Origin: an uncultured Phascolarctobacterium sp.
GTDB taxonomy: Bacteria > Bacillota > Negativicutes > Acidaminococcales > Acidaminococcaceae
NCBI GenBank assembly: GCA_949295115.1
Contig: CASFJU010000004.1
Span: 120,153 to 184,152 of the forward strand
Reading direction: 5' to 3'
Length of the DNA: 64,000 nt
Part shown: piece by piece, positions 43,847-61,095 of the stretch
Layout of the letters: every line of letters starts with the position of its first letter
Numbering within the stretch: position 1 is the first letter of the stretch
Notes under the pieces: model-generated
What the model was told of the DNA's origin: nothing
The model's input: only the letters and a program-made list of their open reading frames with translations
Database searches by the model: none
Position numbers and translations under genes: made by a program

Positions 43847-43847
43847 A

Positions 43848-44456: not shown

Positions 44457-44478
44457 AAAACACACCTCGTACTAAAAT

Positions 44479-44575
44479 AATATTGCAAAATTCATTGACA
44501 TTATTGCAATAACGCTTTATAATTATTATAACAATATTGCAATTGTAATATTGTTATAATAATAAGGCAATATTA
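44479..44575. promoter_or_regulatory. Divergent control region with consensus rightward promoter and operator palindromes
   Basis: TTGACA (44495)-17-TATAAT (44518); TTATTGCAATAA palindrome in the spacer; 42-bp near-perfect palindrome at 44522-44563. Confidence 0.75.
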
Positions 44576-44614
44576 ATATATCTAAATTATATCATAGTTG
44601 GGACTGATTGAACA

Positions 44615-45453: not shown

Positions 45454-46685
45454 TGGCACGCCGGGCATGGGGCGAAGGCTCCGTCTTTTTTGACAAAGTT
45501 AATCAGCGTTGGACATGGAGGGGCACATACCTGATAAATGGTATAAAAACTCCAAAAACATTAACTGCAAAACGGCAAATAGATTTAAAAGAAAAAGTAG
45601 AAAAATTTAAATTTGATGTCAATCAAGGAGTTTTTGACAGCGCCAATATCACTGTTGCTGATTGGATAAAAAAATATTTAATTTTGTTTGTACAACCTAC
45701 GGTTCGTCCATCGACTTTTAACACTTATACTGAAAAATTAAACTTTGTTGTGCGAGCCTTTGGAGAACGAAAATTAAAAACTTTAACCCCTATGGAATTA
45801 CAAAATTTTTTTAATTCTCTTGCTATTGACGGTGGCGCAAAACGACAGGGTCTTTCTCCTACATCTGTCAATACAATTCGCCGTTACTTTAAAGCAGCCT
45901 GCCAAGCAGCTGTTAAAAATCATCTGCTTACAGATAACCCTGTCGATGGAACAAAAGCACTCCGCACAAAAAAGCCCGTAATTATTGTAGCTGATGAAGA
46001 TGAAGTCTTACGCTTGTTAGAAGTAGCTAAAGACGGTTCATATATTTACGAAGGAGTAAAAAACAAAAATTATATTACTGAAAATGAAGGCACTAAATAT
46101 TATAAACAATGTTTTTTCAATGTAGTTAATTTAGACTTGGCCACCGGATTGCGTAGCAGTGAATTATTTGGCTTACGTTGGCAAAACATTAATTGGGCCA
46201 AAGGCTATATCGACTTAAAAGAACAACTATTAATCATCAATGGTAAATATACTTTTTGTGAATTAAAGACTGATAAATCGAAACGCAAAATATACCTAAG
46301 TGAAAAGGTTATTGTTGAGCTACGCCGTTGGAAAATATATCAAAATTTTTACGCAGAAATGCTTGGCGATAAATTTGAAAATATACATAATTTGATTTTT
46401 ACCAACACATTTGGAGGATTTGTAAATGTACAAAACTTTAAACGCCGTTATTATTTTAAGATGCTTTCCGCCGCCGGTATCCAAAAAGGTTTTAACATTC
46501 ACTCCATGCGGCACACTCATGCAACTTTGCTTTTAAAGCATGGTGTAAAACCAAATGTTGTGGCTGATAGATTAGGGCACAGCAATGCTACAGTAACACT
46601 CAACATCTATGCACATGTACTCGAAAATATGGAAGATACTGCACCTAATACTTGGCAAGATATTTTAAAAGGGGAGAATTTATAA
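45453..46685 (+). CDS. Tyrosine integrase of the element
   Basis: N-terminal arm-binding region RRAWGEGSV; catalytic TGLR, HSMRH, LGH, IY all present. Confidence 0.93.
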   Translation: MARRAWGEGSVFFDKVNQRWTWRGTYLINGIKTPKTLTAKRQIDLKEKVEKFKFDVNQGVFDSANITVADWIKKYLILFVQPTVRPSTFNTYTEKLNFVVRAFGERKLKTLTPMELQNFFNSLAIDGGAKRQGLSPTSVNTIRRYFKAACQAAVKNHLLTDNPVDGTKALRTKKPVIIVADEDEVLRLLEVAKDGSYIYEGVKNKNYITENEGTKYYKQCFFNVVNLDLATGLRSSELFGLRWQNINWAKGYIDLKEQLLIINGKYTFCELKTDKSKRKIYLSEKVIVELRRWKIYQNFYAEMLGDKFENIHNLIFTNTFGGFVNVQNFKRRYYFKMLSAAGIQKGFNIHSMRHTHATLLLKHGVKPNVVADRLGHSNATVTLNIYAHVLENMEDTAPNTWQDILKGENL

Positions 46686-46687
46686 AA

Positions 46688-46760
46688 GCTGGGGTTTAAG
46701 GGGTTTACCCCTTGCCAGTGCTATCGTTGGTACCAGAAAGGTACCACGATGGGGAGCTGG
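46688..46760 (+). promoter_or_regulatory. Candidate oriT
   Basis: AAGGGG-TTTA-CCCCTTGCCAG hairpin plus ATCGTTGGTACC/GGTACCACGAT inverted repeat immediately upstream of mobC. Confidence 0.5.
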
Positions 46761-46792
46761 CCAATCAATATAATAATAAACGAGGTTGTAAA

Positions 46793-47107
46793 ATGGCACC
46801 AAAGTCAAAAACAGGTAAAAATTGCGATTTGCATTTGCGCGTCAATACTCAATTAAAAATATATATCGCTAATAAAGCTTCTGAAAATAATAAAACAATT
46901 AATGATTATTGTACAGATATTTTAAAAAATTATAAATATGCCAACCAGCTGATGAATATTGAGGCAATTCAGAAGAAGAAAGTTCGGCTTTTATCAAATT
47001 TAGCTAATAATTTAAATCAGCTTGCAAAACTATGTAATAGTGAAAAAGAGGCACCTCAAAAAGAAATGTTGTTAGCTATGTGGAATGATTTAAAAGCAAT
47101 AAGGTGA
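46793..47107 (+). CDS. mobC: MobC-type relaxosome accessory protein
   Basis: RHH-like N-terminus (LHLRVN), LSNLANNLNQLAKLCN motif; precedes the relaxase. Confidence 0.85.
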   Translation: MAPKSKTGKNCDLHLRVNTQLKIYIANKASENNKTINDYCTDILKNYKYANQLMNIEAIQKKKVRLLSNLANNLNQLAKLCNSEKEAPQKEMLLAMWNDLKAIR

Positions 47108-47111
47108 TTTT

Positions 47112-48074
47112 ATGCCAATACTAAAAGCGATAGATAATCCTGGAAAAAGCGTGGGAACTGTTATCAATTATGCAGATAAAGACCGAAAAAAAGAAATGAA
47201 TGACACATTATTTTTCGGTATAAATTGTGCTGATAATGCTGAAATTGCAGCCTATCAAATGCAAAAAACTAAAGAGTTTTATAATAAAACCGATGGCAGG
47301 CAATATAAGCATTATGTATTATCTTTCGCATCCAACGAAATAAGTATAGAAAGCGCAAAAATATATGCAAAAGAATTTGGCGAACAATGCTTTGGTGAAC
47401 GTTTTGAAGTAGCTGTTGGCATACATGTAAACAGTGAAGGTGGCAAGATACATGCACATTTTGTAGTAAATTCCGTGAGCTTTATTGACGGCAAAAAGCT
47501 ACATTTTGGTAAAGAAGATTTGGAAAATTTTAAATCTATAAACGATTGTTTAGCAAAGCAATATGGACTAAAAGTAATCGACCGCAACCCTGAAGCAGTA
47601 AAAGCACGAGGCCGCCCTCAAATGTATTCACAAAAAATGTATTGGCAATTTACTCAAAAAATAAAAGATAGCTGGGTTGCTCAATGTTCTGTTTCTGTTA
47701 ATGAATCATTAAAAACTAACCCAAAAAACTTTAATGAATTTGCCGAAAAAATGCAAGCAAACGGATGGGACACCCAAATACGTGGAAAGAATATAACTTT
47801 TAGCTGTATTCAAAATCCCAAGTTAAAAGTACGCGCTAACACTTTGGCAAGAAAGTTTAATAATGATACATTAAGCACAGCTAATATAATGCGAGTTTGC
47901 AATACCGAAAACCAGTATGATTTTATTAAAAAATCTGAACAACCAACTTTAACTAAAAATATGACAAATATAGTATCTGCGGTTAAAAATTTATCTCAAT
48001 ATGATAATTCAATACCAACCACAAAAGGATTTAAAGTAAATTTAGATAGTCGGGATGACGACTACGAAAGATAA
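47112..48074 (+). CDS. MOBP-family relaxase / mobilisation nuclease
   Basis: Motif I Tyr (VINY), YKHYVLSF, motif III GKIHAHFVVNSVS. Confidence 0.9.
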   Translation: MPILKAIDNPGKSVGTVINYADKDRKKEMNDTLFFGINCADNAEIAAYQMQKTKEFYNKTDGRQYKHYVLSFASNEISIESAKIYAKEFGEQCFGERFEVAVGIHVNSEGGKIHAHFVVNSVSFIDGKKLHFGKEDLENFKSINDCLAKQYGLKVIDRNPEAVKARGRPQMYSQKMYWQFTQKIKDSWVAQCSVSVNESLKTNPKNFNEFAEKMQANGWDTQIRGKNITFSCIQNPKLKVRANTLARKFNNDTLSTANIMRVCNTENQYDFIKKSEQPTLTKNMTNIVSAVKNLSQYDNSIPTTKGFKVNLDSRDDDYER

Positions 48075-48090
48075 AAAGGAGAAGATAAAA

Positions 48091-48273
48091 ATGATTAAAT
48101 CAAATAATAGTTTAAAATTAAAAGGCAATGTTATGAATAAACAAATTACATCTTATCAAAAGCAAATTGACAAGATAACGGAAAATGGTAAAAATGCAGT
48201 CATCTTGCGGTATATATATTGGGCTATTATTGTTTTTGGTATTTTGAGTATAGTATATCGCGTGACTAAATAA
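48091..48273 (+). CDS. Small hypothetical protein with C-terminal TM helix
   Basis: AAGGAG RBS before ATG at 48091; YIYWAIIVFGILSIVY. Confidence 0.5.
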   Translation: MIKSNNSLKLKGNVMNKQITSYQKQIDKITENGKNAVILRYIYWAIIVFGILSIVYRVTK

Positions 48274-48518
48274 TGAAAATTCAAGAGAAAAAGGAGCATG
48301 TAAAAATGTATAAGGCAAATATAGCACCAAAATTAAAAAAGCTTACTGCTAAAAAGGAAAAAATGGAAGTTTTAAAAAAAGAAATAGAGCAGCTTGAAAC
48401 TGAAATTACCAATGCTAAAAATAAAGAGATCCATCGTTTGTCCATACAATATTTTACTGCTAAAGATGCTGATACGCGTATGCAGATTGAATCTCAAATT
48501 AAAATATTAATGGAGTAA
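48273..48518 (+). CDS. Small coiled-coil hypothetical protein
   Basis: TAATG stop/start coupling; heptad-like Lys/Glu pattern. Confidence 0.55.
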   Translation: MKIQEKKEHVKMYKANIAPKLKKLTAKKEKMEVLKKEIEQLETEITNAKNKEIHRLSIQYFTAKDADTRMQIESQIKILME

Positions 48519-48524
48519 TACTAA

Positions 48525-48902
48525 ATGGATTTAGAAGAATTGGCAGCACAAGTGCAGCAATCAACGCCGGAAGAAAAAATTTCTAAAAAATTTGATGAAG
48601 TCATAGAAACTTTAACAGCAATCAAAGCCCAAAATGAATTAATTTTAAAACATGATAAAGCAATATATAGTAATGTTGTGAATGGTAATAAAAAATTTAA
48701 TACCCAATTTGAAAAAATATCTCAAATTTTGCTTGCTGCCGATAAAAACATTAATTCTATTATTGGGCATCTTTCGGATATTACAGCACAAGTACAATCT
48801 GTAATTATAAGCCGTAATTACGTTGATAATTTACACCTTGCACTTTTGGCGCTTTGCTGTTTTGAATGTTTAATTATAGTTTATATTTCATTTTTTAAAT
48901 AA
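48525..48902 (+). CDS. Hypothetical coiled-coil protein with C-terminal TM anchor
   Basis: 125-aa ORF ending LALLALCCFECLIIVYISFFK. Confidence 0.6.
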   Translation: MDLEELAAQVQQSTPEEKISKKFDEVIETLTAIKAQNELILKHDKAIYSNVVNGNKKFNTQFEKISQILLAADKNINSIIGHLSDITAQVQSVIISRNYVDNLHLALLALCCFECLIIVYISFFK

Positions 48903-48918
48903 GCATTAATTTTGTTTT

Positions 48919-48954
48919 AAATACGGACAATCACTATTTAGATTGTCCGTATTT
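48919..48954 (+). terminator. Terminator ending the mobilisation operon
   Basis: Perfect 14-bp arms AAATACGGACAATC/GATTGTCCGTATTT. Confidence 0.75.
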
Positions 48955-49028
48955 TCATTTATGTTTTCAATCGTGTAATATGTTATAATTATACTAATTA
49001 AAAGTTTTTTACCGTTGGAGGCAATTAC

Positions 49029-51776
49029 ATGAATAAACAGCAGCTTGCATCTAAAATTTGGGAATCAGCCAATAAAATGCGTTCTAAAATTGAGGCTAAC
49101 GAATATAAAGATTATATTCTTGGTTTTATTTTTTATAAATTTCTTTCAGATAAAGAAGTCAAATTTTTAAAAGAAAATGACTGGACAGACGAATATTTGC
49201 CGGAACTTGATGAAAACGATACAGATAACGTAGACTTCGTGCAGAAGAATATAGGTTATTTTATTCCTTATGAACATTTATTTTCGACCTGGATTGCAAA
49301 AGGCAACGATTTTACAGCAGATAATGTAAGCGTTGCTTTATCTTCCTTCAGCCGTTTGGTAAACGAATCGCACAAAGGTGTATTTAAAAACATTTTTCAA
49401 ACGCTGGAAACAGGTCTGTCCAAACTCGGAGCAACTGCTCCTGACCGCACCAAAGCTATTCGCGATTTAATCAACCTTATTAAAGATATACCCATGGACG
49501 GCAAGCAGGATTACGATGTACTTGGCTTTATTTACGAATATTTAATCAGCAACTTTGCTGCTAACGCAGGCAAAAAAGCTGGTGAATTTTACACTCCTCA
49601 TGAAGTATCACTTTTAATGTCGGAACTTGTTGCGCATCACCTTAAAGACCGCGATAAAATTGAAATTTACGACCCTACCAGCGGTTCCGGTTCGCTGCTT
49701 ATCAACATTGGCCAATGTGCTGCCAAATATATTGGCAGTGAGAACAACATAAAATATTATGCGCAGGAACTTAAAGAAAATACCTATAACCTTACGCGTA
49801 TGAACCTTGTTATGCGCGGAATTTTGCCGGATAACATCGTTACCCGTAATGGCGATACTTTAGAGGACGACTGGCCTTATTTTGATGATAAAGACCCGGT
49901 TAATACTTATAATCCGCTTTATGTAGATGCCGTTGTATCTAATCCGCCATATTCCCAGGCATGGGACCCTACTGATAAAGAAATGGACGCACGTTATTCG
50001 CGTTTTGGCCTTGCACCTAAAAGCAAAGCAGATTACGCCTTCCTTTTGCACGACTTGTTCCATTTAAAAGCAGACGGCATTATGGCTATTGTACTGCCGC
50101 ATGGCGTACTGTTTCGTGGTGGCGAAGAAGGCAAAATTCGTAAAAACTTAATAGAATATAACCATATCGACGCTATTATTGGCCTTCCGGCAAATATTTT
50201 CTTTGGCACCGGCATACCCACTATTATTATGGTGCTTAAACAAAAACGTGATAACACCGATGTGCTTATAGTCGATGCTTCCAAAGGATTTGCCAAAGTA
50301 GGCAAAAATAATATGCTTCGCGCCTGTGATATTAAAAAAATTGTAGACGCTGTAACAACCCGCTCTGACATTGATAAATTCTCTAAAAAGGTAAGTCGCG
50401 ATACCATCCGCGCTAATGATTATAACCTTAACATTCCCCGCTATGTTGATTCTTCCGAAAAAGCTGAAAGCTGGGACATTTATGCCTCTATGTTTGGTGG
50501 CATTCCCGAAAACGAATTAGCGGATTTACAAGCCTATTGGGACGCCTTCCCTACTCTTAAAACATCTCTGTTTAAACAATTAAACGCCGGTTATTGGCTG
50601 CTTAATACTGATGATTTAAAAACAGCAGTTAGCGACAACACAGATATAACCACTTTTAAAACTAATTACAACAACGCCTTTGGCGATTTTAACGCTTATC
50701 TTAATGCTGAACTTATAGATGATACCGTAAATGTTAATATCTCTAAAGAACTAAACACTATCAGCGATAATATTTTTGCACGCCTTCAAAACGTGCCGTT
50801 AATCGATAAATACGAAGCTTACCAGCTGCTTGCCGATAATTGGAATAACATTGCCGTTGATTTAGAAATACTGCAAACCGAAGGTATGGACGCTGTTAAA
50901 GTGGTAGACCCTAATTTTGTTGTAAAAAAGAAAAACGGCAAAGATGAAGAAGTGCAGGAAGGTTGGAAAGGTCATGTGCTACCGTTTGAATTGGTACAAA
51001 AAGTTATCTTAAACGAAGATGTTCAAGAATTGGATTCAAAGAACTCTATGTTAAATAACATTAAAGCAAAACTTGATGATATTATTGAAAACTTATCTGA
51101 GGAAGATAGAGAGTCTAATTTATTAAATGATGCAAATACTGCTTTCAATGAAAGTGAAGTAAAAAATAAAATTAAAATTATTTTAAACGATATAAAAACA
51201 ACAGAAATTGAAGTATTGCAAGAATATTTATCTCTGAGCAAAAAGAAGGAAAAAATAGAATTTATAAAACAAAAAAACGATTATTTTCCAGATAAAATAT
51301 TGATTGCAAATGATGGAACCTATAAAAAGAATGATATAAAAAATTATATTAATGAGTTGAAATTAACATATCAGTTTCCAGAGGGGTCTTGGGAAAACAC
51401 ATTAAAAGAGATATTAGACCTTTTAAATAATGAAAAAATATTAAAAGATGAAATAAAGAAAAAAACTATCGCTTTACACCTTAAAACTAAAGAAGTTATA
51501 GAACAACTTACTGATGAGCAAGTAAACACCTTACTTAAAGAAAAATGGATTACACCGTTTTTCAACAGCTTAAACGGTCTGCCTGATGCTGTTGTAAATA
51601 CTTTAGTTAATAAACTGGAAACTATTTGCAAAAAATACGAAACCACTTTTGCTGATGTAGAAAAAGAGATTGCCGAAACCGAACAAAGTTTAATAGGTAT
51701 GCTTGATGAGTTGGAAGGCAATGAGTTTGATATGCAGGGTATTGCTGAACTGAAAGCATTGTTAGGGGGTAAGTAA
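49029..51776 (+). CDS. hsdM: Type I restriction-modification methyltransferase (long 915-aa form)
   Basis: LASKIWESANKMR, GEFYTP, DPTSGSG (motif I), NPPY (motif IV), VLPHGVLFRGG. Confidence 0.96.
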   Translation: MNKQQLASKIWESANKMRSKIEANEYKDYILGFIFYKFLSDKEVKFLKENDWTDEYLPELDENDTDNVDFVQKNIGYFIPYEHLFSTWIAKGNDFTADNVSVALSSFSRLVNESHKGVFKNIFQTLETGLSKLGATAPDRTKAIRDLINLIKDIPMDGKQDYDVLGFIYEYLISNFAANAGKKAGEFYTPHEVSLLMSELVAHHLKDRDKIEIYDPTSGSGSLLINIGQCAAKYIGSENNIKYYAQELKENTYNLTRMNLVMRGILPDNIVTRNGDTLEDDWPYFDDKDPVNTYNPLYVDAVVSNPPYSQAWDPTDKEMDARYSRFGLAPKSKADYAFLLHDLFHLKADGIMAIVLPHGVLFRGGEEGKIRKNLIEYNHIDAIIGLPANIFFGTGIPTIIMVLKQKRDNTDVLIVDASKGFAKVGKNNMLRACDIKKIVDAVTTRSDIDKFSKKVSRDTIRANDYNLNIPRYVDSSEKAESWDIYASMFGGIPENELADLQAYWDAFPTLKTSLFKQLNAGYWLLNTDDLKTAVSDNTDITTFKTNYNNAFGDFNAYLNAELIDDTVNVNISKELNTISDNIFARLQNVPLIDKYEAYQLLADNWNNIAVDLEILQTEGMDAVKVVDPNFVVKKKNGKDEEVQEGWKGHVLPFELVQKVILNEDVQELDSKNSMLNNIKAKLDDIIENLSEEDRESNLLNDANTAFNESEVKNKIKIILNDIKTTEIEVLQEYLSLSKKKEKIEFIKQKNDYFPDKILIANDGTYKKNDIKNYINELKLTYQFPEGSWENTLKEILDLLNNEKILKDEIKKKTIALHLKTKEVIEQLTDEQVNTLLKEKWITPFFNSLNGLPDAVVNTLVNKLETICKKYETTFADVEKEIAETEQSLIGMLDELEGNEFDMQGIAELKALLGGK

Positions 51777-51777
51777 A

Positions 51778-52867
51778 ATGCCTGAAAATGCTAAAAAACC
51801 GCAAATTAGATTCAAAGGATTTACGGACGATTGGGAACAGCGTAAGTTCTATTAGAAAAAGCGGAAAATATGAAATCCTTGGTTCTACTTCAGTTATTGG
51901 ATATGATAATTCTTATGATTATGAAGGTGATTTTTTACTAACTGCTCGTGTAGGGGCAAATGCCGGAGAATTATATAGACATAATGGAAAAGTAAAAATC
52001 AGCGATAATACTGTATTTATTCAAGGAAAAGCATTAGATTTTATATATTATGCTTTATTAAATTTTGATATAAAACGTCTTTCGTTTGGAACCGGCCAAC
52101 CTTTGGTGAAAGCCAGCGAATTAAAAGAATTATTACTTTATATGCCGAGCGAGTTAGAAAGAAAGTTTATAGGTAAGTATTTTATTTTTTTAGATAACCT
52201 TATCACCCTTCATCAGCGTAAGTTAGATAAGCTTAAAAATATTAAAAAATCTATGCTTGAAAAAATGTTTCCAAAAAATGGCAGCAATATTCCGGAAATT
52301 CGTTTTAAAGGATTTACTGACGCTTGGGAACAGCGTAAGTTGGACGAAATTGCAATTTTTAATCCTAAAGCTGAATTGCCAAATGTTTTTGAATATGTGG
52401 ACCTTGAATCTGTAATCGGAACCGAAATGGTATCTCATAGAACAGAAACTAAATATACTGCACCTTCTAGAGCACAACGTTTAGCTTATGCAGGAGATTT
52501 GTTTTACCAAACAGTAAGACCATATCAAAAAAATAACTATCTTTTTGAAAAAGCAGATAAATTCTATGTTTTTTCAACAGGCTATGCACAACTACGTCCA
52601 TTAACAGATGGTTATTTTCTGCTTTCTATTATCCAAAATTCAAATTTCGTAAAAACTGTTTTAGATAATTGTACTGGTACAAGTTATCCTGCTATTAATT
52701 CTAATGACCTCTCACAAATCTACGTATCAACTTCTTTAGATATGGAAGAATGTAAACAAATAGGATATTTCTTTCGTAAACTTGACAACCTTATCACCCT
52801 TCATCAGCGTAAGCTGGAGAAGTTACAGAACATAAAAAAAGCTTGCTTAGAAAAGATGTTTGTATAA
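51778..52867 (+). pseudogene. hsdS: Type I specificity subunit (TRD-a + TRD-b), frameshifted at ~51849 in this sequence
   Basis: MPENAKKPQIRFKGFTDDWEQRK then FY-stop; the rest (TRD, LITLHQRK, MLEKMFP..IRFKGFTDAWEQRK, TRD, LEKMFV) is in another frame. Confidence 0.85.
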
Positions 52868-52884
52868 GCAGAAAGGAAAAAGTC

Positions 52885-55800
52885 ATGGCTTTTACATCGG
52901 AAGCAGAATTTGAAAAAGCATTAGTTGATTTATTGCCGTCTAAAGGTTGGGAAAAGACTGTTTTAAAAAATCCTACCGAAGAACAGCTTATTCAAAACTG
53001 GGCTGATATTTTATTTGAAAACAACCGCAGCATTGACCGTTTAAACGATTATCCGCTTACTAAAGGAGAAATGGCTCAAATTTTAGAGCAAATTAAAAAC
53101 TTAAGAACGCCACTGATGCTGAATGGTTTTATTAACGGCGGCAGTGTACAAATTACGCGCGATAATTCGCAGGACACTTTGCATTTTGGCAAAGAAGTTT
53201 CGCTTAAAATTTATGATCGCCGCGAAATTGCCGCAGGCCAAAGCCGTTACCAAATAGTTGAGCAGCCGCAGTTTAATACTAAATCACCCATACTTAACAA
53301 TAGGCGTGGTGATGTAATGCTGCTTATTAACGGTATGCCGGTAATTCATATCGAACTTAAAAAGAGTGGCATCCCTGTAAGTCAGGCATATCACCAAATC
53401 GAAAAATATGCGCACGAAGGCGTATTTACCGGGCTGTTTTCATTAGTGCAAATTTTTGTAGCCATGAACCCTGAAGAAACCGTATATTTCGCTAACCCGG
53501 GACCTGATGGAACTTTTAACTCTGATTTTTACTTTCATTGGGCAGATTTTAACAATGAACCTATTAACGATTGGCAGCGCGTTGCCTCTACTCTGCTCTC
53601 TATACCAATGGCACATCAATTAATTGGCTTTTATACTGTTGCAGACGATTTAGACGGTATTTTGAAAGTTATGCGAAGCTATCAGTATTTTGCCGCCAGT
53701 GCTATTTCTGATAAAGTTGCTAAAACTAAATGGGAAGGCAATGAACAATTAGGCGGTTACATTTGGCATACTACCGGCAGCGGCAAAACTATGACTTCTT
53801 TTAAATCTGCACAACTTATTGCTGCCTCTAACGATGCTGATAAAGTAGTATTTTTAATGGACCGTATCGAACTTGGCACACAAAGTTTAAGGCAGTACCG
53901 TGGTTTTGCTGATAATGCCGATAATGTACAGGCAACGGAAAACACTGGTGTGTTGGTAAGTAAATTAAAAAGTAACGATGTAAAAAATACTCTGATAGTT
54001 ACCTCAATACAAAAAATGAGTAACATTAAAGACGAAGCCGACGGTGGCATGACTTCTGTTGATGTCAAACTAATGCAATCTAAACGCATCGTTTTTATCG
54101 TTGATGAATGTCATCGTTCTACTTTCGGTGATATGCTGTATATAATTAAGCAAACTTTCCCTAAAGCCGTATTTTTCGGCTTTACCGGCACGCCTATTCA
54201 CCTTGAAAACCAAAAGAAAAAATCTACGACAGCTATGGTTTTTGGTAATGAACTGCACCGTTACAGTATTGCAGACGGCATTCGTGATAAAAACGTACTT
54301 GGTTTTGACCCTTATAAGGTTTTAACCTATAAAGACCAGGATGTGCGCGAGCAAATTGGATTAGAAGCAGTTAAAGCACAAACACTTGAAGAAGTGTACG
54401 CCGATGAGAAAAAAACTAAAAAATTTAATGAATATATGAAAATGCCTATGGCTGGGTATTATGAAAATAATGAGTATATAAAAGGCATTGAGGATTATTT
54501 GCCTGATAGTCAGTACCGCACAGAAGAACACCAGAACAATGTTGTAAAAGATATCATAGATAACTGGGTATATCTTAGCCATAATAGTAAATTCCACGCT
54601 ATTTTTGCCACATCAAGCATTAACGAAGCCATAGAATATTATAGACTGATGAAAAAAGCTGCACCGCAGCTTAAAATAACAGCACTTTTTGACTCCAGCA
54701 TTGATAATAATGGCAAAGCAGAATTTAAAGAAGATGGTCTTGTAGAAGTTATCGAAGATTATAATGCACATTATAATCAGCATTTTACTATCCCTACATT
54801 TGCCGCTATGAAGAAGGATATTGCCGCAAGGCTGGCGCATAAAAAACCTTATCAACGGCTGAAGCCTGAAGAACAGGTTGATTTGTTGATAGTAGTTGAC
54901 CAAATGCTTACCGGGTTCGATTCAAAATGGGTTAACACGCTTTATATGGATAAAGTGCTTAAATATGAGAATATCATTCAAGCGTTCTCGCGTACCAATC
55001 GCATTTTTGGACCGGAAAAACCGTTTGGCACAATTAAATATTACCGCAGGCCGCATACTATGGAAAAATTAGTAGCGGCAGCCTTTAAGCTTTACTCCGG
55101 CGATAAACCGTTTGGCTTATTTGTAAACAAGTTAAATAAAAACTTAGAAGATTTAAATTTTTATTATAAAAGCATTAAAGACCTCTTTGGACAAGCAGGC
55201 ATAGCGGACTTTGCTAAACTGCCGGAGCAGCAAGCCGAATGTAAGGAGTTTGCACGTTTATTTAAACTATTAAACGAAGCTTTGGAAGCAGCTAAATTGC
55301 AAGGTTTTAACTGGAATAAATTAGAATATCAATTCGTAGACGAGAATAGCGGAGAAAAGTACAGCATTAAAGTAGCTTTAGATGAAAAGACTTATAAAAT
55401 ACTGGCCAAAAGGTATAAAGAATTATCCAAACCTGGCGGAAGCGGGCCTGGTGAAGAAATGCCTTATGATATTGATGGTTATTTAACAACTATTGATACC
55501 GATGATATTGATTCAGATTACATGAATTCCCGCTTTGTAAAGTATATTAAATTACTGCATACTGATGGTACATCGGCAGAGATTTTAGCTAAAGCCGCTG
55601 ATGAGTTGCATAAAACTTTTGCTACTTTAACTCAGGAAGAACAAAAGTACGCAAATATTTTATTACACGATATTCAGCGTGGCGATGTAATACCGGAAGC
55701 TGGTAAAACCTTTAGAGATTACATAACAGAGTATTTAGCCAATGCCAAAAACACGCAGGTACATAAAGTGGCGCAAATTTTAGGTTTAGACGAAGCCAAA

Positions 55801-56013
55801 TTGCTGAAAATGATGGCGTTAGGTGTGACAGATGCCAATATTAATGCTTTTGGACGTTTTGATGAATTAAAGACAACGGTCGATAAGCAAAAAGCGAAGG
55901 CTTATTTTGAAAAAGTTGAAGGCAAAAAAATTATACTGCCTAAAGTAAATAACAAAATTGACCTGTTTTTAAGAAATTTTATTATAAGTGGAGGATTTGA
56001 TATCGAGCAATAA
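52885..56013 (+). CDS. hsdR: Type I restriction endonuclease subunit R
   Basis: D...IELKK nuclease motif, HTTGSGKT, DECH, FTGTP, QAFSRTNR. Confidence 0.96.
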   Translation: MAFTSEAEFEKALVDLLPSKGWEKTVLKNPTEEQLIQNWADILFENNRSIDRLNDYPLTKGEMAQILEQIKNLRTPLMLNGFINGGSVQITRDNSQDTLHFGKEVSLKIYDRREIAAGQSRYQIVEQPQFNTKSPILNNRRGDVMLLINGMPVIHIELKKSGIPVSQAYHQIEKYAHEGVFTGLFSLVQIFVAMNPEETVYFANPGPDGTFNSDFYFHWADFNNEPINDWQRVASTLLSIPMAHQLIGFYTVADDLDGILKVMRSYQYFAASAISDKVAKTKWEGNEQLGGYIWHTTGSGKTMTSFKSAQLIAASNDADKVVFLMDRIELGTQSLRQYRGFADNADNVQATENTGVLVSKLKSNDVKNTLIVTSIQKMSNIKDEADGGMTSVDVKLMQSKRIVFIVDECHRSTFGDMLYIIKQTFPKAVFFGFTGTPIHLENQKKKSTTAMVFGNELHRYSIADGIRDKNVLGFDPYKVLTYKDQDVREQIGLEAVKAQTLEEVYADEKKTKKFNEYMKMPMAGYYENNEYIKGIEDYLPDSQYRTEEHQNNVVKDIIDNWVYLSHNSKFHAIFATSSINEAIEYYRLMKKAAPQLKITALFDSSIDNNGKAEFKEDGLVEVIEDYNAHYNQHFTIPTFAAMKKDIAARLAHKKPYQRLKPEEQVDLLIVVDQMLTGFDSKWVNTLYMDKVLKYENIIQAFSRTNRIFGPEKPFGTIKYYRRPHTMEKLVAAAFKLYSGDKPFGLFVNKLNKNLEDLNFYYKSIKDLFGQAGIADFAKLPEQQAECKEFARLFKLLNEALEAAKLQGFNWNKLEYQFVDENSGEKYSIKVALDEKTYKILAKRYKELSKPGGSGPGEEMPYDIDGYLTTIDTDDIDSDYMNSRFVKYIKLLHTDGTSAEILAKAADELHKTFATLTQEEQKYANILLHDIQRGDVIPEAGKTFRDYITEYLANAKNTQVHKVAQILGLDEAKLLKMMALGVTDANINAFGRFDELKTTVDKQKAKAYFEKVEGKKIILPKVNNKIDLFLRNFIISGGFDIEQ

Positions 56014-56043
56014 AAAACTTTCGCTTATATACGGCGCAAAGAT

Positions 56044-56074
56044 AAAAGAGTCAAGGATTTTCCTTGGCTCTTTT
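56044..56074 (+). terminator. Terminator after hsdR, insulating the silent cassettes
   Basis: AAAAGAGTCAAGG/CCTTGGCTCTTTT hairpin. Confidence 0.65.
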
Positions 56075-56081
56075 GCTATGT

Positions 56082-57049
56082 TTGGGAACAGCGTAAGTTG
56101 GGAGAGATAGCAGAAACTTATTCCGGTGGCACGCCTTCAGTAAGTATAAAAAAATATTATATTGGAAATATTCCTTTTATTCGTTCAGCAGAAATAAATA
56201 GTAAAAGCACAGAATTATTTATCAATGAGGAAGCTTTACTATATTCATCTGCTAAACGTGTTTCAACTGGCGATATTTTATATGCGCTATACGGGGCTAC
56301 TAGCGGAGAAGTAGGGAGAGCAGCTTTAAATGGAGCAATAAATCAAGCTGTATTAGCTATTTTACCACAGAAAAAATATGATTCTGAATATTTAATGCAA
56401 TGGCTACGTAAAAGTAAATTTAAAATAATAGGAACATTCTTACAAGGTGGTCAAGGTAATTTATCAGCAGAAATAGTCAAAAATTTAAATATTGATTTGC
56501 CAAACAAAGTAGAACAAGAGAAAATAGGAAATTATTTCTTAAATCTTGATAACCTTATCACCCTTCATCAGCGTAAATATTTTTGCAGTAATAACCTAAT
56601 ATTTACTATAACAACCGCTTGGGAACAGCGTAAGTTGGGAAAATTTGGATATACTTATACTGGTCTTTCTGGAAAAATCAAAGAAGATTTCGGCCATGGG
56701 CAAGCTCGCTTTATTACTTACAACATCGTCAGAGACGCCTGAAGAAGTTGGGATGTCCTCGGTTTTACTTGAAAAATATAATATAACTTATTTAAATAGC
56801 TTTTGTTTTGGATTTAGGCCAACTGAAAAATTTAATAATCACTTTATCGCATATATGCTCCGTTCCAAAACAGTGAGAGAAAAAATTATTCTTCTTGCAC
56901 AGGGGATATCAAGATATAACATATCAAAAAATAAAGTGATGGAAATAGATATTTCTTTGCCGACGCTTAAAGAGCAAAAATTTGTTGGTCAATATTTTAA
57001 GTCTCTCGACAACCTTATCACCCTTCATCAGCGTGAGTGTTTTTATTAA
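56082..57049 (+). other. hsdS: Two silent hsdS TRD cassettes (TRD-c, TRD-d); TRD-d carries an internal frameshifting deletion at ~56718
   Basis: Each cassette is bounded by WEQRK and NLITLHQR repeats; no RBS or N-terminal leader; conserved central spacer is replaced by a short linker. Confidence 0.85.
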
Positions 57050-57064
57050 AAAAGGAGGTGCAAA

Positions 57065-57994
57065 ATGTTAAGTTTAATTAAAAATGTAGACCTTTTTCAT
57101 CAGTATTATCATTCATGGATAAAGGTTTACAAAGAAGGGGCTGTACGAAAAGTAACTATGGATAAATATTATATGACATATTCATGGTTAATAAGATTAG
57201 CGCCCAAATTGCGTTTATGTGATGTTACCAGAATTACTTATCAGCAGTTGCTTAATGATTATGCCATATATCACGAAAGGCAAACTACCATGGATTTTCA
57301 CCATCAACTGAAAGGTGCAATAATGGACGCTGTTGATGAAGGACTTATTGAGCGTGACCCTACACGAAAAGCGATAATTAAAGGCAAAACACCGGCAATA
57401 AAAAAGAAAAAGTATCTTAACCAATTTGAACTGCATACTTTGCTCATCAATTTAGATTTGCAAAACAGAATTAACTGGGATTGGCTGATTATGTTAATAG
57501 CCAAAACAGGCATCAGGTTTTCGGAAGCATTAGCTATTACGCCTAAAGATTTTGACTTTTCTCACCAAATGCTTTCTATTAGCAAAACTTGGGATTATAA
57601 GGGGAGCGGCGGTTTTTTGCCAACAAAAAATGCGTCTTCAGTGCGGAAAATTCAAATTGATTGGCAAACAGTAATTCAGTTTGCAGAACTGGTAAAAAAT
57701 TTGCCTAACGATAAACCTATATTTTTGTTAAAAGAAAAAATATATAATTCTACTATAAATGATATTTTAGAAAGGCGTTGCCGCAAAGCTAATTTGCCTG
57801 TTATTTCTGTACACGGGCTTAGGCATACGCACGCATCATTGCTACTTTTTGCTGGTGTTTCCATTGCCAGTGTTGCCAGACGGCTCGGCCACGCCAGCAT
57901 GACAACAACACAAAAAACTTATCTGCATATTATACAAGAGTTGGAAAATAAAGATGTTGATTTAGTTATGCGCTCCATAGCCGGACTAAGTTAA
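57065..57994 (+). CDS. Second tyrosine recombinase, hsdS-shufflon-associated type
   Basis: 309 aa with no arm-binding domain; TGIRFSE, HGLRHTH, RLGH, TY; adjacent to the TRD cassettes. Confidence 0.88.
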   Translation: MLSLIKNVDLFHQYYHSWIKVYKEGAVRKVTMDKYYMTYSWLIRLAPKLRLCDVTRITYQQLLNDYAIYHERQTTMDFHHQLKGAIMDAVDEGLIERDPTRKAIIKGKTPAIKKKKYLNQFELHTLLINLDLQNRINWDWLIMLIAKTGIRFSEALAITPKDFDFSHQMLSISKTWDYKGSGGFLPTKNASSVRKIQIDWQTVIQFAELVKNLPNDKPIFLLKEKIYNSTINDILERRCRKANLPVISVHGLRHTHASLLLFAGVSIASVARRLGHASMTTTQKTYLHIIQELENKDVDLVMRSIAGLS

Positions 57995-58111
57995 AAGCAA
58001 ATGCTCTCGCTGATGATAATTATAATTTTAAGCTTTTATATATTGAACTTTGACCGGATTATGCTGTATTTATGGTATAATATTTAAAAATGATTTAATG
58101 AGGAACACAAA

Positions 58112-58987
58112 ATGGATAATTTAAAATATAAATACGAACTTCTAATAAACTGGTGGCGTTCACTTAATATTACTGATGATGCTGCACTTGCAGAAGCTTT
58201 TAACGAGCATATCATTAATTTTGCATATAATTCCGGCAACATTGAAAATCCTAATGTTACCTACCACGATACCCGTGAAATTTTTGAACATGACAGTGTT
58301 ACCGGCTACACAGGCAATTTATGCACGCTGTTTGAAATTCGTAATGCTAAAGTTGCTATGGAATACTTCTTTAAAGCCTTTAGGGATAAAATGCCTTTGA
58401 ATGAAACCTTCATCAAAGAATTGCAGCGGCGTTTGACACTTAACACTTACGATGAACGCCGCTGGCAGTGCTGTGAGTGCCCGGGAGAATACAAGAAATG
58501 CGATTATGTTACCGGCAGAAATGAAACCGGCGCATCTGCCGAAGATGTTCCGGATGAAATGCAGGAGCTGTTAGAGGATTTAGAGGTACTGCCGAAAGAA
58601 CCTGAAAAAGTTTTGATGGCAGCTGCTTTCTTCCACGCAAAGTTTGAAAATATCCATCCTTTTGCCGACGGAAATGGGCGTACCGGCCGCCTTGCCATGA
58701 ATTACCTGCTTGCCATAAATAATCATCCGCCACTTGTAATTCATCAAGAGGATAGAAAAGCGTACTTTGAAGCCCTTGAAGCGTGGGACACGGAGCAGAA
58801 CCTTAAACCGTTAAAAGCCTTTTTGTTGAAACAGATTATAAAAACGTGGGCAAAAAGGATTACTGTTTTAGAAAAAGCGGAAAATGAGGAAGATTTAAAA
58901 GATTTTAAGCAGGCAATGGATGAATTTAAGAAAAATCCTAAAACCTATACCCACGAAGAAATGAAGAAAATGTTTGATTTAAAATAA
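58112..58987 (+). CDS. Fic family protein (class II) with an extra antitoxin-like C-terminal tail
   Basis: Canonical HPFADGNGRTGR; N-terminal inhibitory SGNIEN matching (S/T)xxxE(G/N). Confidence 0.9.
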   Translation: MDNLKYKYELLINWWRSLNITDDAALAEAFNEHIINFAYNSGNIENPNVTYHDTREIFEHDSVTGYTGNLCTLFEIRNAKVAMEYFFKAFRDKMPLNETFIKELQRRLTLNTYDERRWQCCECPGEYKKCDYVTGRNETGASAEDVPDEMQELLEDLEVLPKEPEKVLMAAAFFHAKFENIHPFADGNGRTGRLAMNYLLAINNHPPLVIHQEDRKAYFEALEAWDTEQNLKPLKAFLLKQIIKTWAKRITVLEKAENEEDLKDFKQAMDEFKKNPKTYTHEEMKKMFDLK

Positions 58988-59009
58988 AAATGCAAAAGGA
59001 GTTGATAAC

Positions 59010-59276
59010 ATGGGGTTAGAAAAAGCTATTGCCCATGGTAAAGAGCACCGTAAACCTTATCATGATTCAAGGGCTATCGCAGGAGAATGCAGAAATCACG
59101 GCGGCTGCCCATACTGCACCGGCAATAGATTGTATAGTTTTGAAAAACAAAAACAATCAGCTATTCAAAAGCTAAAAGAATATTACTCAAATGACGGGCA
59201 AAATTTCAGCAATGATAAAATGCCCGTTATTTTTTATTCCAGAAACGATAAAATCATCTTAAAAAGTGCTGTTTAA
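59010..59276 (+). CDS. Small basic hypothetical protein with CxxHxxCxxC motif
   Basis: AAGGAG RBS; GKEHRKPY...CRNHGGCPYC. Confidence 0.65.
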   Translation: MGLEKAIAHGKEHRKPYHDSRAIAGECRNHGGCPYCTGNRLYSFEKQKQSAIQKLKEYYSNDGQNFSNDKMPVIFYSRNDKIILKSAV

Positions 59277-59448
59277 GGCTTTAAAAAAATGAGTGGCATA
59301 TAAATGTTCGCGATTTAACATAAAATGTTTTTAAAGGCATTTATGACGATTTTAGAGGCAAGTTAAGTGAACTCTATTATCCTATGAAAATATTAGCTTT
59401 TCAAAAATTAAACATATATGACTTATTGAACAGATTGAACATATAAGA

Positions 59449-59483
59449 AAAACCGCGAAGCAACTTAAACTTCGCGGTTTTAG
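59449..59483. terminator. Terminator of the ATPase gene
   Basis: AAAACCGCGAAG/CTTCGCGGTTTT hairpin. Confidence 0.7.
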
Positions 59484-59498
59484 TATAAATAAAAAATG

Positions 59499-60821
59499 TT
59501 AATTATTTTCTAACAGCCAATCAATTATGTTTAATGATTTAATGCCATTATAATCAGCGTCGTTGTTTAAATCCATAGATAGCACAATCTTTTCGTAATT
59601 ATCACGTATTTTCTGCAACGGTGCTAATTCACGCTTGCGTACTTCTTCTCCTTGCAAGCTTTCCGTTACCTGAATATACAATTTTTCGTTATATTTTGTT
59701 GCTATAAAATCAACTTCGGTATTATCAACCTTGCCAACGGCTAAATCGTAACCACGCCGCAAAAGTTCAAGGTAAATAACATTTTCTAAAATGTGTCCTC
59801 TATCACGGTCGCGGTTGCCAAGCAAATAGGTTCTAAGCCCAGTATCGACAATATAATATTTGCCAAGGGTTCTTAAAAATTCTTTGCCTTTTATATCAAA
59901 TCGTTTAATTTCATAAAAAAAGTAACTTTCAGTTAAAGTGTTTACATAAGACTGGACAGTATGCGTACTGGGCTTGCCTTTACGTGTTTCTATATCTATT
60001 AATCCTTCATTGCTAAGCGTACCTGCCATTGATGTAGCAGAAATACTGCTGCCAATATTATCTGCAAGGAAAAGGATTATTTTACGTAATAACGCAGCAT
60101 CAGTAATACGTTTTTGACCCCTGCGCTTTTCCCTTTCCAGTATATCTCTTATTACTACTGTTGAATAAATTCCGTCCAATAGTGCCATAGCCTTGTCCAT
60201 TTCAAGACCTATATCGGCAATGCCAGGCATACCGCCAAAAAGCAAGTAAGCATTAAAGGCTTCTGCCGGTTCATAACTAATACCGTTTTTGTCTTTAATA
60301 ATTTTACGCTTGCCTCCAAAGGCACTGGTAGCTTCTTCTATCTTAAACTCGTGGAAATCAAGAAATTCTGCAAAAGAGAGCGGCAACATTTTAATTTCAA
60401 CGCTGCGTCCGGAAAGATATGTGGCATATTCTGACGATAGCAAATAGGCATTAGAACCGGTTATATAAATATCGCAGTCAAAATCAACACGGAAAGAATT
60501 AACAGCATCTTCCCAACCTTCTATGCGTTGAAGTTCATCAAAAAAGAGATACGAGCGTTTTTCTGTATTGATATGCTCTTTAACATAACTGTAAAACTCC
60601 TGCGCTGTCATATTCCTAAAAGCCATAGATTCAAAATTCATTGACAGTATTTGGTTATCTGCAACGCCTTGTTCCTGTAAATATTTAATCATCAGCTTTA
60701 GCAAACTGGATTTACCACAGCGGCGGATGCCGGTAATTATTTTTACAGGCTCTGTATCTTTAAAAGCGATCAATTTATTTAAATAACCGTTTCTTGATTT
60801 TAAAATTTGGTTGCTAATCAT
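59499..60821 (-). CDS. AAA_14 + DUF4143 ATP-binding protein
   Basis: ITGIRRCGKS Walker A, FFDELQ, ITGSN, LSGR, LENVIYLEL, EVDF, YIQV. Confidence 0.88.
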   Translation of the reverse strand: MISNQILKSRNGYLNKLIAFKDTEPVKIITGIRRCGKSSLLKLMIKYLQEQGVADNQILSMNFESMAFRNMTAQEFYSYVKEHINTEKRSYLFFDELQRIEGWEDAVNSFRVDFDCDIYITGSNAYLLSSEYATYLSGRSVEIKMLPLSFAEFLDFHEFKIEEATSAFGGKRKIIKDKNGISYEPAEAFNAYLLFGGMPGIADIGLEMDKAMALLDGIYSTVVIRDILEREKRRGQKRITDAALLRKIILFLADNIGSSISATSMAGTLSNEGLIDIETRKGKPSTHTVQSYVNTLTESYFFYEIKRFDIKGKEFLRTLGKYYIVDTGLRTYLLGNRDRDRGHILENVIYLELLRRGYDLAVGKVDNTEVDFIATKYNEKLYIQVTESLQGEEVRKRELAPLQKIRDNYEKIVLSMDLNNDADYNGIKSLNIIDWLLENN

Positions 60822-61095
60822 TTTTAACACCTGCCTTATGTAAATTATAGCACAAACTCTAAAAAAAACAAAGTTTATGCTATGAAATGCACAAACTTTT
60901 GAAATATTAACGAATTTGAATTGTTGAAAACATATGAAATTATAAACAAATAGTAAGACAAAATAGTGACTAATTCTAATTTAACTGCTTTGAAACATAA
61001 TAAAAAGTTTACACAAATTATGGTTTAAACTGATATTTTTATAATAAAAAAGTAAAATATTACACATGAATTATATAATTCTTTCATATTGAAAA

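What the first reader, a model, noticed from the sequence alone, without database searches (positions are those of the whole stretch)
51778..57994. Type I RM shufflon whose specificity cassettes are all in direct orientation and bracket hsdR
Seen: the order is hsdM - hsdS[A-TRDa-B-spacer-A-TRDb-B] - hsdR - terminator - [A-TRDc-B]-[A-TRDd-B] - tyrosine recombinase, with four exact copies each of an 18-bp repeat A and a 24-bp repeat B, all on the same strand. Established: most recombinase-driven hsdS shufflons (e.g. the pneumococcal ivr locus) use inverted repeats, while the pneumococcal tvr locus shuffles by excision-reintegration between direct repeats. Inference: crossover between a repeat in hsdS and its twin in the silent array would excise TRDs together with the whole hsdR as a ~4-kb circle. 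One recombinase could then both reshuffle four TRDs and switch the cell between restriction-on and restriction-less states. That would be useful for a mobilisable element entering an unmethylated host.
Basis: partly seen in the sequence, partly recalled or inferred. Interest (0 to 1): 0.85.

Follow-up and report, generated by a model that had tools for sequence, protein, structure and literature searches.

The report
Direct-repeat Type I specificity shufflon spanning hsdR
A restriction-modification gene cluster on a mobile island swaps its DNA-recognition modules between an expressed gene and a silent store lying beyond the nuclease gene, using same-direction repeats where the well-studied systems use inverted ones; it is a widespread but barely studied variant of a known kind of switch.

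Summary
There are four exact copies each of an 18-bp repeat A and a 24-bp repeat B, all on the + strand. The layout is hsdM, hsdS[A-a-B..A-b-B], hsdR, terminator, [A-c-B][A-d-B], tyrosine recombinase, inside a GC-poor mobilisable island.

TRD-a lacks 44 nt and TRD-d lacks 101 nt. Neither deletion appears in the reads of the best-matching sample or in a 99.97%-identical contig, so they are probably assembly artefacts.

A and B match, with one mismatch each in the compared stretches, the published recombination sites of the E. faecalis EfiA ("clade 4") hsdS invertase. They are conserved at synonymous positions across 80 related loci.

Unitigs from one metagenome sample carry all four junctions expected if a and d have exchanged places, at roughly one third of the depth. 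Relatives place the same TRDs on either side of hsdR.

So direct-repeat shuffling across hsdR is supported. The hsdR-bearing circle and the restriction on/off idea remain inferred: hsdR depth equals its flanks, and the one hsdR-less contig could be an assembly chimera.

It works like the pneumococcal tvr locus, with a recombinase of the EfiA kind. The layout recurs in many gut Bacillota. Verdict: new variant of a known kind.

The parts
49029..51776 (+). hsdM (915 aa; methyltransferase with a ~425-aa C-terminal extension of unknown family)
   Evidence: Pfam HsdM_N + N6_Mtase, NCBIfam TIGR00497. The extension has no family or PDB match.
51778..52867 (+). Expressed hsdS: N-terminal conserved part, A1, TRD-a, B1, 104-nt central conserved spacer, A2, TRD-b, B2, C-terminal conserved part. 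Frameshifted in the window by a 44-nt gap after A1.
   Evidence: Pfam Methylase_S; translations; intact 377-aa version in L002.
51831..51848 (+). Repeat A1 (site A)
   Evidence: Exact match.
52196..52219 (+). Repeat B1 (site B)
   Evidence: Exact match.
52324..52341 (+). Repeat A2
52787..52810 (+). Repeat B2
52885..56013 (+). hsdR (1042 aa), lying between the expressed hsdS and the silent cassettes
   Evidence: Pfam HSDR_N, SWI2_SNF2, T1R_D3-like, EcoR124_C; NCBIfam TIGR00348.
56043..56075 (+). Terminator-like hairpin (15 pairs plus T run) between hsdR and the silent array
56082..57049 (+). Silent array: A3, TRD-c, B3, 44-nt spacer, A4, TRD-d, B4. It has no start codon or RBS and lacks the distal halves of the conserved helices. 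TRD-d has a 101-nt gap at 56717/56718 in the window.
   Evidence: intact 350-aa ORF in L002.
56082..56099 (+). Repeat A3
56551..56574 (+). Repeat B3
56619..56636 (+). Repeat A4
57011..57034 (+). Repeat B4
57065..57994 (+). Tyrosine recombinase (309 aa, 930-bp gene), EfiA-like, lying outside every excisable segment
   Evidence: Pfam Phage_integrase. Motifs typical of tyrosine recombinases, read by eye: GIRFSE, HGLRHTH, LGH, TYLH. More than 1100 relatives at 74-83% identity sit next to hsdS cassettes.

Best explanation
This is a Type I R-M specificity shufflon run by a tyrosine recombinase of the E. faecalis EfiA kind. Here the two site types, A (in the codons for WEQRKL, upstream of each TRD) and B (in the codons for DNLITLHQRK, downstream of each TRD), are all in direct orientation.

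Four TRD cassettes (a, b expressed; c, d silent behind a terminator, downstream of hsdR) each sit between one A and one B. A pair of crossovers, one AxA and one BxB, exchanges a cassette of the expressed hsdS with one of the silent array and leaves everything else in place.

For a site-specific recombinase acting on direct sites 4-5 kb apart, the simplest path has two steps. The first crossover excises a circle of about 4.3-4.8 kb carrying hsdR, the terminator and the intervening cassettes. The second crossover, at the other site type, reintegrates it. This is the excision-reintegration scheme shown for the pneumococcal tvr locus.

Four TRDs can give six pairings, and so six target sequences. 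If the circle is lost, the cell is left with hsdM, a truncated hsdS and no hsdR.

Shown: the sites, their conservation, the swapped a/d junctions in one sample, and cassette relocation across hsdR among relatives.

Inferred: recombinase dependence, the circle, and the idea that excision removes the terminator so that the recombinase is read from the hsdM promoter.
For: 1. Site identity. A and B match the experimentally defined inverted repeats of E. faecalis Efa4125I: TGGGAACAGTGTAAG has one mismatch to A, and the first 26 nt of ATCACTCTTCATCAGCGTAAGTTAGAACAG have one mismatch to B plus its downstream flank. efiA is 930 bp, as is the gene here.

2. Site conservation. Across 80 GTDB loci with a 74-83% identical recombinase, A and B are at least 90% conserved at most nucleotide positions, including synonymous ones. 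The QRK codons read CAGCGTAAG in 76 of 120 A sites. In B sites they read CAGCGTAAG in 61 of 144 and CAGCGTGAG in 33.

3. In-sample variants. In runs X1/X2 (one sample, holding 98% and 96% of the window's words), the k=31 unitigs for TRD-a (433 nt) and TRD-d (517 nt) end exactly at A and B. That means each cassette has at least two contexts. The bridging unitigs give:
- N-terminal context-A-a and N-terminal context-A-d, at depths 17 and 13.3;
- 44-nt spacer-A-a;
- a-B-recombinase context at depth 8, against 16.8 for the parental d-B-recombinase junction;
- d-B-central spacer.
TRD-b and TRD-c stay joined to their contexts on the A side, and c on both sides.

4. Cassette f. TRD f is 100% identical in L004 (expressed position 2) and L001 (first position, followed by the silent-type spacer), apart from a 29-nt tandem duplication in L001. 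Site polymorphisms place the crossovers inside A and inside the 3' part of B. Both intervals contain the core CAGCGT(AAG) that A and B share.

5. Family-wide movement. In 35 loci with a recombinase gene at least 97% identical, a shared TRD pool occupies every position on both sides of hsdR. Direct-only loci L126 and L129 are cyclic permutations of the same three TRDs. Protein hits show b-, c- and d-like TRDs in all positions.

6. Precedent. tvr shuffles through two types of direct repeat that share a core, via circles.
Against: - No read links position 1 to position 4, so [d,b|R|c,a] cannot be told from a mix of [d,b|R|c,d] and [a,b|R|c,a].
- The junctions of the circle are the same as those of the swapped chromosome, so the circle is unobserved.
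- hsdR depth equals its flanks in S1, so any excised or lost state is rare there.
- The sample is a metagenome. Two long-separated clones of one strain would give the same picture, although no SNP splits the 8-kb and 3.9-kb flanking unitigs.
- Only the a/d exchange was seen.
- Recombinase dependence is untested.
- Relatives often carry the same TRD twice, which a purely reciprocal mechanism does not produce.
Confidence: 0.62

Rival explanations
1. The cassettes are exchanged at A and B by the recombinase, but between sister chromosomes or by circle capture into a sister copy. This would be non-reciprocal and conversion-like. No free hsdR circle would need to be lost or regained, and there would be no restriction-less state.
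For: All four recombinant junctions in S1 would also arise from [d,b|R|c,d] plus [a,b|R|c,a]. Relatives often hold the same TRD twice in one locus, for example L157 with t10 on both sides of hsdR, and L100, L152, L161, L168, P0004. hsdR depth is unchanged.
Against: Sites 4-5 kb apart on one molecule should meet more readily than sites on sister chromosomes (general expectation, not tested here). The depths of a (24.3) and d (21) stay about equal. tvr uses circles. L126 and L129 are cyclic permutations, as excision-reintegration predicts.
Confidence: 0.2
2. The locus is a locked or decaying relic. The recombinase normally inverts, the direct layout cannot switch productively, and the variants seen are old events or imports by horizontal transfer among co-resident strains.
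For: The window copy has two frameshifted cassettes. L001 lacks hsdR and has a frameshifted TRD. The samples are metagenomes holding several related strains.
Against: The frameshifts are absent from the reads and from L002. The two arrangements coexist at roughly 2:1 on an otherwise identical background. Breakpoints fall exactly at sites that are conserved at synonymous positions. Direct-only layouts made up 13 of 55 complete loci.
Confidence: 0.12
3. The direct layout is a misassembly of an ordinary inverted locus.
For: Assemblies of such loci are error-prone. The window has two spurious deletions, and many public contigs break at B.
Against: A read-derived 3853-nt unitig carries B2, hsdR, A3, B3 and A4 on one strand. 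L002, L004, L042, L102, L122 and others repeat the layout. There is no inverted A or B anywhere in the 64 kb.
Confidence: 0.02

Closest known systems
Pneumococcal tvr locus (SpnIV), TvrR-driven excision-reintegration (Kwun et al. 2018, PMC6265443)
   Same: TRD cassettes are bounded by two kinds of short direct repeat that share a core (tvr: ~18-bp MPR and ~70-bp TER with an ~11-bp core; here 18-bp A and 24-bp B sharing CAGCGTAAG). There is an adjacent tyrosine recombinase and a hairpin that can limit read-through into it. A Doc/Fic-family gene lies nearby. Cassette order varies within a population.
   Different: In tvr the circle carries the recombinase, the Phd-Doc pair and TRDs, while hsdR stays on the chromosome. 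Here the excisable segment carries hsdR and the terminator, and the recombinase stays behind. TvrR is placed in invertase clade 2, whereas the sites here are those of the clade-4 enzyme EfiA. In tvr, N- and C-terminal TRDs keep to their own positions; here all cassettes have the same flanks.
E. faecalis Efa4125I / EfaH25I 'epigenetic invertons' with EfiA (Huang et al. 2020, PMC7672463)
   Same: The recombination sites are nearly identical: TGGGAACAGTGTAAG, and ATCACTCTTCATCAGCGTAAGTTAGA (the start of the published repeat). The recombinase gene has the same length (930 bp). The sites lie in the same places in the conserved hsdS regions flanking the TRDs.
   Different: There the second hsdS is inverted, each crossover is an inversion, and hsdR lies outside the invertible segment. 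Here every site is direct, so a single crossover deletes, and two are needed for a swap.
Pneumococcal ivr/cod locus (SpnD39III, PsrA/CreX)
   Same: One expressed hsdS plus silent partial hsdS genes and a tyrosine recombinase. Six specificities arise from a small TRD set.
   Different: It uses inverted repeats and a different recombinase clade (clade 1), and hsdR is not inside the rearranging segment.
Sphaerochaeta halotolerans Type I locus noted by Huang et al. 2020
   Same: Direct instead of inverted repeats in the hsdS genes. The authors proposed excision-reintegration.
   Different: It is mentioned only as 1 of 46 sampled loci and was not analysed. Its layout relative to hsdR is not described.

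Membership tests
Type I restriction-modification system | HsdM with N6-adenine methyltransferase domain | tested here: met
   PF02384 E=4.5e-100, PF12161, TIGR00497 above cut-off.
Type I restriction-modification system | HsdS with two TRDs separated by conserved regions | tested here: inconclusive
   PF01420 hits. The gene is frameshifted in the window, but it is intact (377 aa) in the 99.97%-identical L002 and in the reads of X1/X2.
Type I restriction-modification system | HsdR with nuclease, SF2 motor and C-terminal domains | tested here: met
   PF04313, PF18766, PF22679, PF12008, TIGR00348.
Inverting hsdS shufflon ('epigenetic inverton', ivr/EfiA type) | Inverted repeats between the expressed hsdS and an oppositely oriented silent hsdS | tested here: not met
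   There is no A, B or HsdS-like sequence on the minus strand anywhere in the window.
Inverting hsdS shufflon ('epigenetic inverton', ivr/EfiA type) | Recombination sites matching the published EfiA repeats | tested here: met
   A differs from TGGGAACAGTGTAAG at 1 of 15 positions. The B region differs from the first 26 nt of the published repeat (ATCACTCTTCATCAGCGTAAGTTAGA) at 1 position.
Inverting hsdS shufflon ('epigenetic inverton', ivr/EfiA type) | Recombinase homologous to EfiA | not tested
   No EfiA sequence was at hand. Indirect support: the gene has the same length. The window's recombinase is 78% identical to one in an Enterococcus cecorum hsdM-hsdS contig and 65% identical to one on E. 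raffinosus plasmids.
tvr-like excision-reintegration shufflon | [quoted passage not shown] | tested here: met
   Four A and four B sites, all direct, with the shared core CAGCGTAAG; compare.
tvr-like excision-reintegration shufflon | Cassette order heterogeneous within a population of one strain | tested here: met
   All four a/d recombinant junctions appear in S1 unitigs on an otherwise unbranched background. Caveat: this is a metagenome, not a clonal culture.
tvr-like excision-reintegration shufflon | Circular excised intermediate | not testable with these tools
   The circle's junctions are identical to those of the swapped chromosome. Only k=31 contigs were available, and no long reads.
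tvr-like excision-reintegration shufflon | Recombinase orthologous to TvrR (clade 2), carried on the circle with Phd-Doc | tested here: not met
   Position: the recombinase and the Fic gene lie outside every A-A or B-B interval. Clade: the sites are those of the clade-4 enzyme EfiA. Direct sequence comparison with TvrR was not possible.

The most novel reading that the evidence does not exclude
Placing hsdR and the terminator inside the excisable segment may be functional. Under this reading, each specificity change passes through a state in which hsdR is on a non-replicating circle and the recombinase is de-repressed by loss of the terminator. That would give a built-in restriction-alleviation step and a drive towards reintegration. 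Circle loss would provide a one-way exit to a restriction-free island.
Probability: 0.15. Interest if true: 0.8.

Novelty: new variant of a known kind. Interest (0 to 1): 0.58.

Why it matters
Surveys of phase-variable Type I systems look for inverted repeats. The one large survey read here (PMC7672463) met a direct-repeat locus in 1 of 46 sampled loci and set it aside.

Here the same recombinase sites that drive inversion in E. faecalis are found in all-direct arrays in about a quarter of complete loci of this recombinase family. In 9 of those 55 loci, cassettes lie on both sides of hsdR. There is also evidence from reads that such an array exchanges cassettes.

If confirmed, inverted-repeat screens undercount phase-variable methylomes in gut Bacillota. 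One recombinase-site pair would then support both inversion and excision-reintegration. These loci would also offer a natural test of how cells survive a change of restriction specificity when the nuclease gene itself is part of the moving segment.

Tried and rejected
- Runs X18/X20 and X3-X7 turned out to be complex metagenomes holding several related hsdS loci. Their junction variety could not be assigned to one strain.
- A look-up of the window's 359-aa frameshifted ORF found nothing. Junction-word searches found no relevant run.
- The protein search with a concatenated a-b-c-d query returned only TRDs from other lineages at up to about 80% identity, and no alternative arrangement of this strain.
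- The metagenome scan gave no relative closer than 80%.
- No dyad symmetry was seen by eye in A or B. This was not computed, so the exact cleavage positions remain unknown.
- The tvr repeat sequences are available only as an image, so no direct site comparison with tvr was possible.
- Depth ratios of A-type against B-type recombinant junctions (about 0.42-0.44 against 0.32) are too noisy to reveal excised forms.
- The organism was not identified. The host part of the window is about 51% GC.
Full report
**Observation**

The repeats are as described. A (TTGGGAACAGCGTAAGTT) occurs at 51831, 52324, 56082 and 56619. B (AACCTTATCACCCTTCATCAGCGT) occurs at 52196, 52787, 56551 and 57011. All copies are exact and on the + strand. 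There is no further copy on either strand at up to 2 or 3 mismatches, and shuffled sequence gave none.

Domain searches give these genes:
- hsdM at 49029-51776;
- an hsdS with two TRDs at 51778-52867;
- hsdR at 52885-56013;
- two further TRD cassettes at 56082-57049;
- a 309-aa tyrosine recombinase at 57065-57994.

A 15-pair hairpin followed by a T run lies at 56043-56075, between hsdR and A3. The cluster sits in a 34.5% GC island within roughly 51% GC DNA. The island also carries an HTH repressor, an excisionase, an integrase, NikA/MobC and a relaxase.

**A flaw in the window copy**

Read from its proper ATG (51778), hsdS stops after 25 codons (WEQRKFY*). TRD-d is also out of frame. Contig L002, from another sample, is 99.97% identical over 17 kb and has the same four TRDs in the same order. 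It differs by 44 extra nt right after A1 and 101 extra nt inside TRD-d, which gives an intact 377-aa HsdS and a 350-aa silent ORF.

In runs X1/X2, which hold 98% and 96% of the window's words, the unitigs for TRD-a (433 nt = A + 391 + B) and TRD-d (517 nt = A + 475 + B) are intact at full depth. The words spanning the two deletion junctions are in no relevant indexed run, and the frameshifted ORF is not on record. I therefore treat the two deletions as probable assembly artefacts. They hit exactly the two cassettes that are polymorphic in position in that sample (see below).

**What the repeats are**

A lies in the codons for WEQRKL, upstream of each TRD. B lies in the codons for DNLITLHQRK, downstream of each TRD. 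The two share the core CAGCGTAAG.

Published work on E. faecalis Efa4125I/EfaH25I defined the inverted repeats at which the recombinase EfiA inverts hsdS segments. They are TGGGAACAGTGTAAG and ATCACTCTTCATCAGCGTAAGTTAGAACAG... (PMC7672463). The first has one mismatch to A. The first 26 nt of the second have one mismatch to B plus its downstream flank. efiA is 930 bp, the same length as the recombinase gene here.

The recombinase has more than 546 relatives at 74-83% identity in GTDB genomes and more than 581 in metagenome contigs. Nearly all sit beside hsdS cassettes. In the 80 GTDB loci, A and B are at least 90% conserved at most nucleotide positions, including third codon positions. The QRK codons read CAGCGTAAG in 76 of 120 A sites. 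In B sites they read CAGCGTAAG in 61 of 144 and CAGCGTGAG in 33. The taxa span Clostridia, Lactobacillales, Negativicutes and Pasteurellaceae. That is conservation at the DNA level, as expected of recombinase sites.

**Evidence for movement in this strain**

Logan contigs are k=31 unitigs, and the repeats are shorter than 30 nt. A unitig therefore breaks at a repeat only if the cassette has more than one neighbour. In X1 the picture is as follows.
- The a and d unitigs end exactly at A and B.
- b stays joined to the central spacer on its A side.
- c stays joined to hsdR and the 44-nt spacer.

The short bridging unitigs give all four junctions expected if a and d have exchanged places:
- The N-terminal context (ATTTACGGACGA) plus A is followed by either the start of a or the start of d. 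These are two 42-mers, at depths 17 and 13.3 in X1.
- The 44-nt spacer plus A is followed by the start of a, ATTAAATGAAGT.
- a-B is followed by the recombinase-side context GAGTGT, at depth 8 in X1 and 2 in X2.
- d-B is followed by the central spacer, at depth 2-4 in X2.

The parental junctions are correspondingly reduced: spacer-A-d is at depth 13 of about 22, and d-B-recombinase at 16.8 of about 24. Roughly a third or more of the population therefore has d in the expressed first position and a next to the recombinase. No SNP splits the flanking 8-kb and 3.9-kb unitigs.

**Evidence from close relatives**

- L004 has the identical recombinase protein and four other TRDs, arranged e,f | hsdR | g,h.
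- L001 reads hsdM, N-terminal part, A, f, B, 44-nt spacer, A, g, B, recombinase, with no hsdR.
- L003 and L007 have g next to the recombinase, preceded by the 44-nt spacer.

TRD f is identical in L004 and L001 apart from a 29-nt tandem duplication in L001, yet both of its flanks differ. A T variant inside B travels with f, and a C variant at position 17 of A travels with g. The crossovers therefore fall inside A and inside the 3' part of B. Both intervals contain the shared core.

L001 is exactly the product predicted for an A1xA3 deletion of a [x,y|R|f,g] parent. It could equally be a chimeric assembly path, if f occupies position 1 in some cells of that sample and position 3 in others.

**Evidence from the wider family**

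The same sites occur inverted, direct, or both. Of 55 loci with hsdM, a recombinase and at least 1.5 kb downstream:
- 13 have only direct sites;
- 9 have cassettes on both sides of hsdR in the same orientation.

L042, L029, L102, L122, L107, L124 and L115 share the window's layout of two silent cassettes between hsdR and the recombinase; L042, L107 and L124 also carry inverted cassettes upstream of hsdM.

Among 35 human-gut loci with a recombinase gene at least 97% identical, a common TRD pool occupies every position. For example, t1 is silent in L122 and expressed in L124, and t3 is expressed in L102 and silent in L124. The direct-only loci L126 and L129 are cyclic permutations of the same three TRDs. 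Called proteins show b-, c- and d-like TRDs both in full-length HsdS and in silent-array ORFs, in all orders.

The same TRD also occurs twice in several loci, for example L157 with t10 on both sides of hsdR. Non-reciprocal events therefore happen too.

**Mechanism**

A tyrosine recombinase acting on direct sites deletes the DNA between them. A swap that keeps everything else in place needs one AxA and one BxB crossover. The simplest route has two steps:
1. A1xA4 excision, which releases a 4.8-kb circle carrying a, b, hsdR, the terminator and c.
2. Reintegration through the circle's B1 into the chromosomal B4, which yields [d,b|R|c,a].

This is the scheme shown by PCR, mutants and exonuclease assays for tvr (PMC6265443).

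Here it is inferred, not shown. The circle's junctions are the same as those of the swapped chromosome. Exchange between sister chromosomes would also give the same four junctions. hsdR depth (22.5) equals the hsdM side (22.2) and the recombinase side (23.8), so an hsdR-less fraction, if any, is small in this sample.

Two consequences follow from the anatomy alone:
- Every excision across hsdR removes the terminator, so the recombinase would then be read from the hsdM operon.
- Loss of the circle leaves hsdM with a truncated hsdS and no hsdR. L001 may be such a product.

**Comparison with known systems**

The locus works like tvr: two kinds of direct repeat with a shared core, a recombinase, a hairpin before the recombinase, and a Doc/Fic-family neighbour. 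It is not a tvr homologue in layout. In tvr the circle carries TvrR and Phd-Doc, and hsdR stays on the chromosome. TvrR represents invertase clade 2 in the published classification, whereas the sites here are those of the clade-4 enzyme EfiA.

It fails the defining feature of an inverton, which is inverted repeats. The published survey found direct repeats in 1 of 46 sampled loci and suggested excision-reintegration without further study. Two further literature searches and a check of a 2023 inversion survey found no description of an all-direct EfiA-type array or of hsdR inside the rearranging segment.

**Verdict**

Shuffling through direct repeats across hsdR is supported. The circle, the restriction on/off switch and the adaptive story are not shown.
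- It is a new variant of a known kind, common in gut Bacillota, and of moderate interest.

Noticed in passing
window 50499-51776: HsdM carries a ~425-aa C-terminal extension with no Pfam family above threshold and no PDB sequence match. The related lineage (L001/L004) has a shorter, 851-aa HsdM.
   Followed up: partly
window 58112-58987: Directly after the recombinase lies a Fic/Doc-family protein fused to a RelB-like antitoxin domain (DUF6290). In tvr, Phd-Doc homologues next to TvrR repress shuffling. A Fic gene follows the recombinase only in this lineage, not in the wider family.
   Followed up: partly
window 43600-59500: A GC-poor (34.5% against 50.7%) integrative mobilisable island carries the R-M locus: HTH repressor, excisionase, integrase 45453-46685, NikA/MobC 46712-47107 and relaxase 47112-48074. 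Its ends were not mapped. The left flank differs between the window and L001, while the right flank is shared.
   Followed up: partly
window 51848/51849 and 56717/56718: The window's two frameshifting deletions (44 nt and 101 nt) fall exactly in cassettes a and d, the two that swap positions in sample S1. This suggests consensus or assembly errors in a mixed population. The cause is unexplained.
   Followed up: partly
L001 8964-9021: TRD f in the hsdR-less contig has a 29-nt tandem duplication (GATGATGGAGTTATGTTTTTATCAGTGGA) that breaks the frame. It is otherwise identical to f in L004.
   Followed up: partly
L157, L100, L152, L161, L168, L095; protein P0004: The same TRD occurs twice in one locus or one HsdS. 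In L157 it lies on both sides of hsdR. This points to duplicative (non-reciprocal) cassette transfer in this family.
   Followed up: no
L126-L129: Four loci with near-identical recombinases and only direct sites hold the same three TRDs. L126 (28,29,16) and L129 (29,16,28) are cyclic permutations. L128 (16,29) and L127 (16,28) show two of the three. In these loci hsdR lies between the cassettes and the recombinase.
   Followed up: partly
L005-L009, L013, L016, L018, L026-L028 and many others: Public contigs very often start 50-150 nt upstream of this recombinase, or exactly at site B. This is what assembly breaks caused by cassette heterogeneity would look like.
   Followed up: no
window 59499-60830 (minus strand): An AAA_14 / DUF4143 ATPase gene with its own terminator (59481-59449) lies at the right edge of the GC-poor region. 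Its function is unknown.
   Followed up: no
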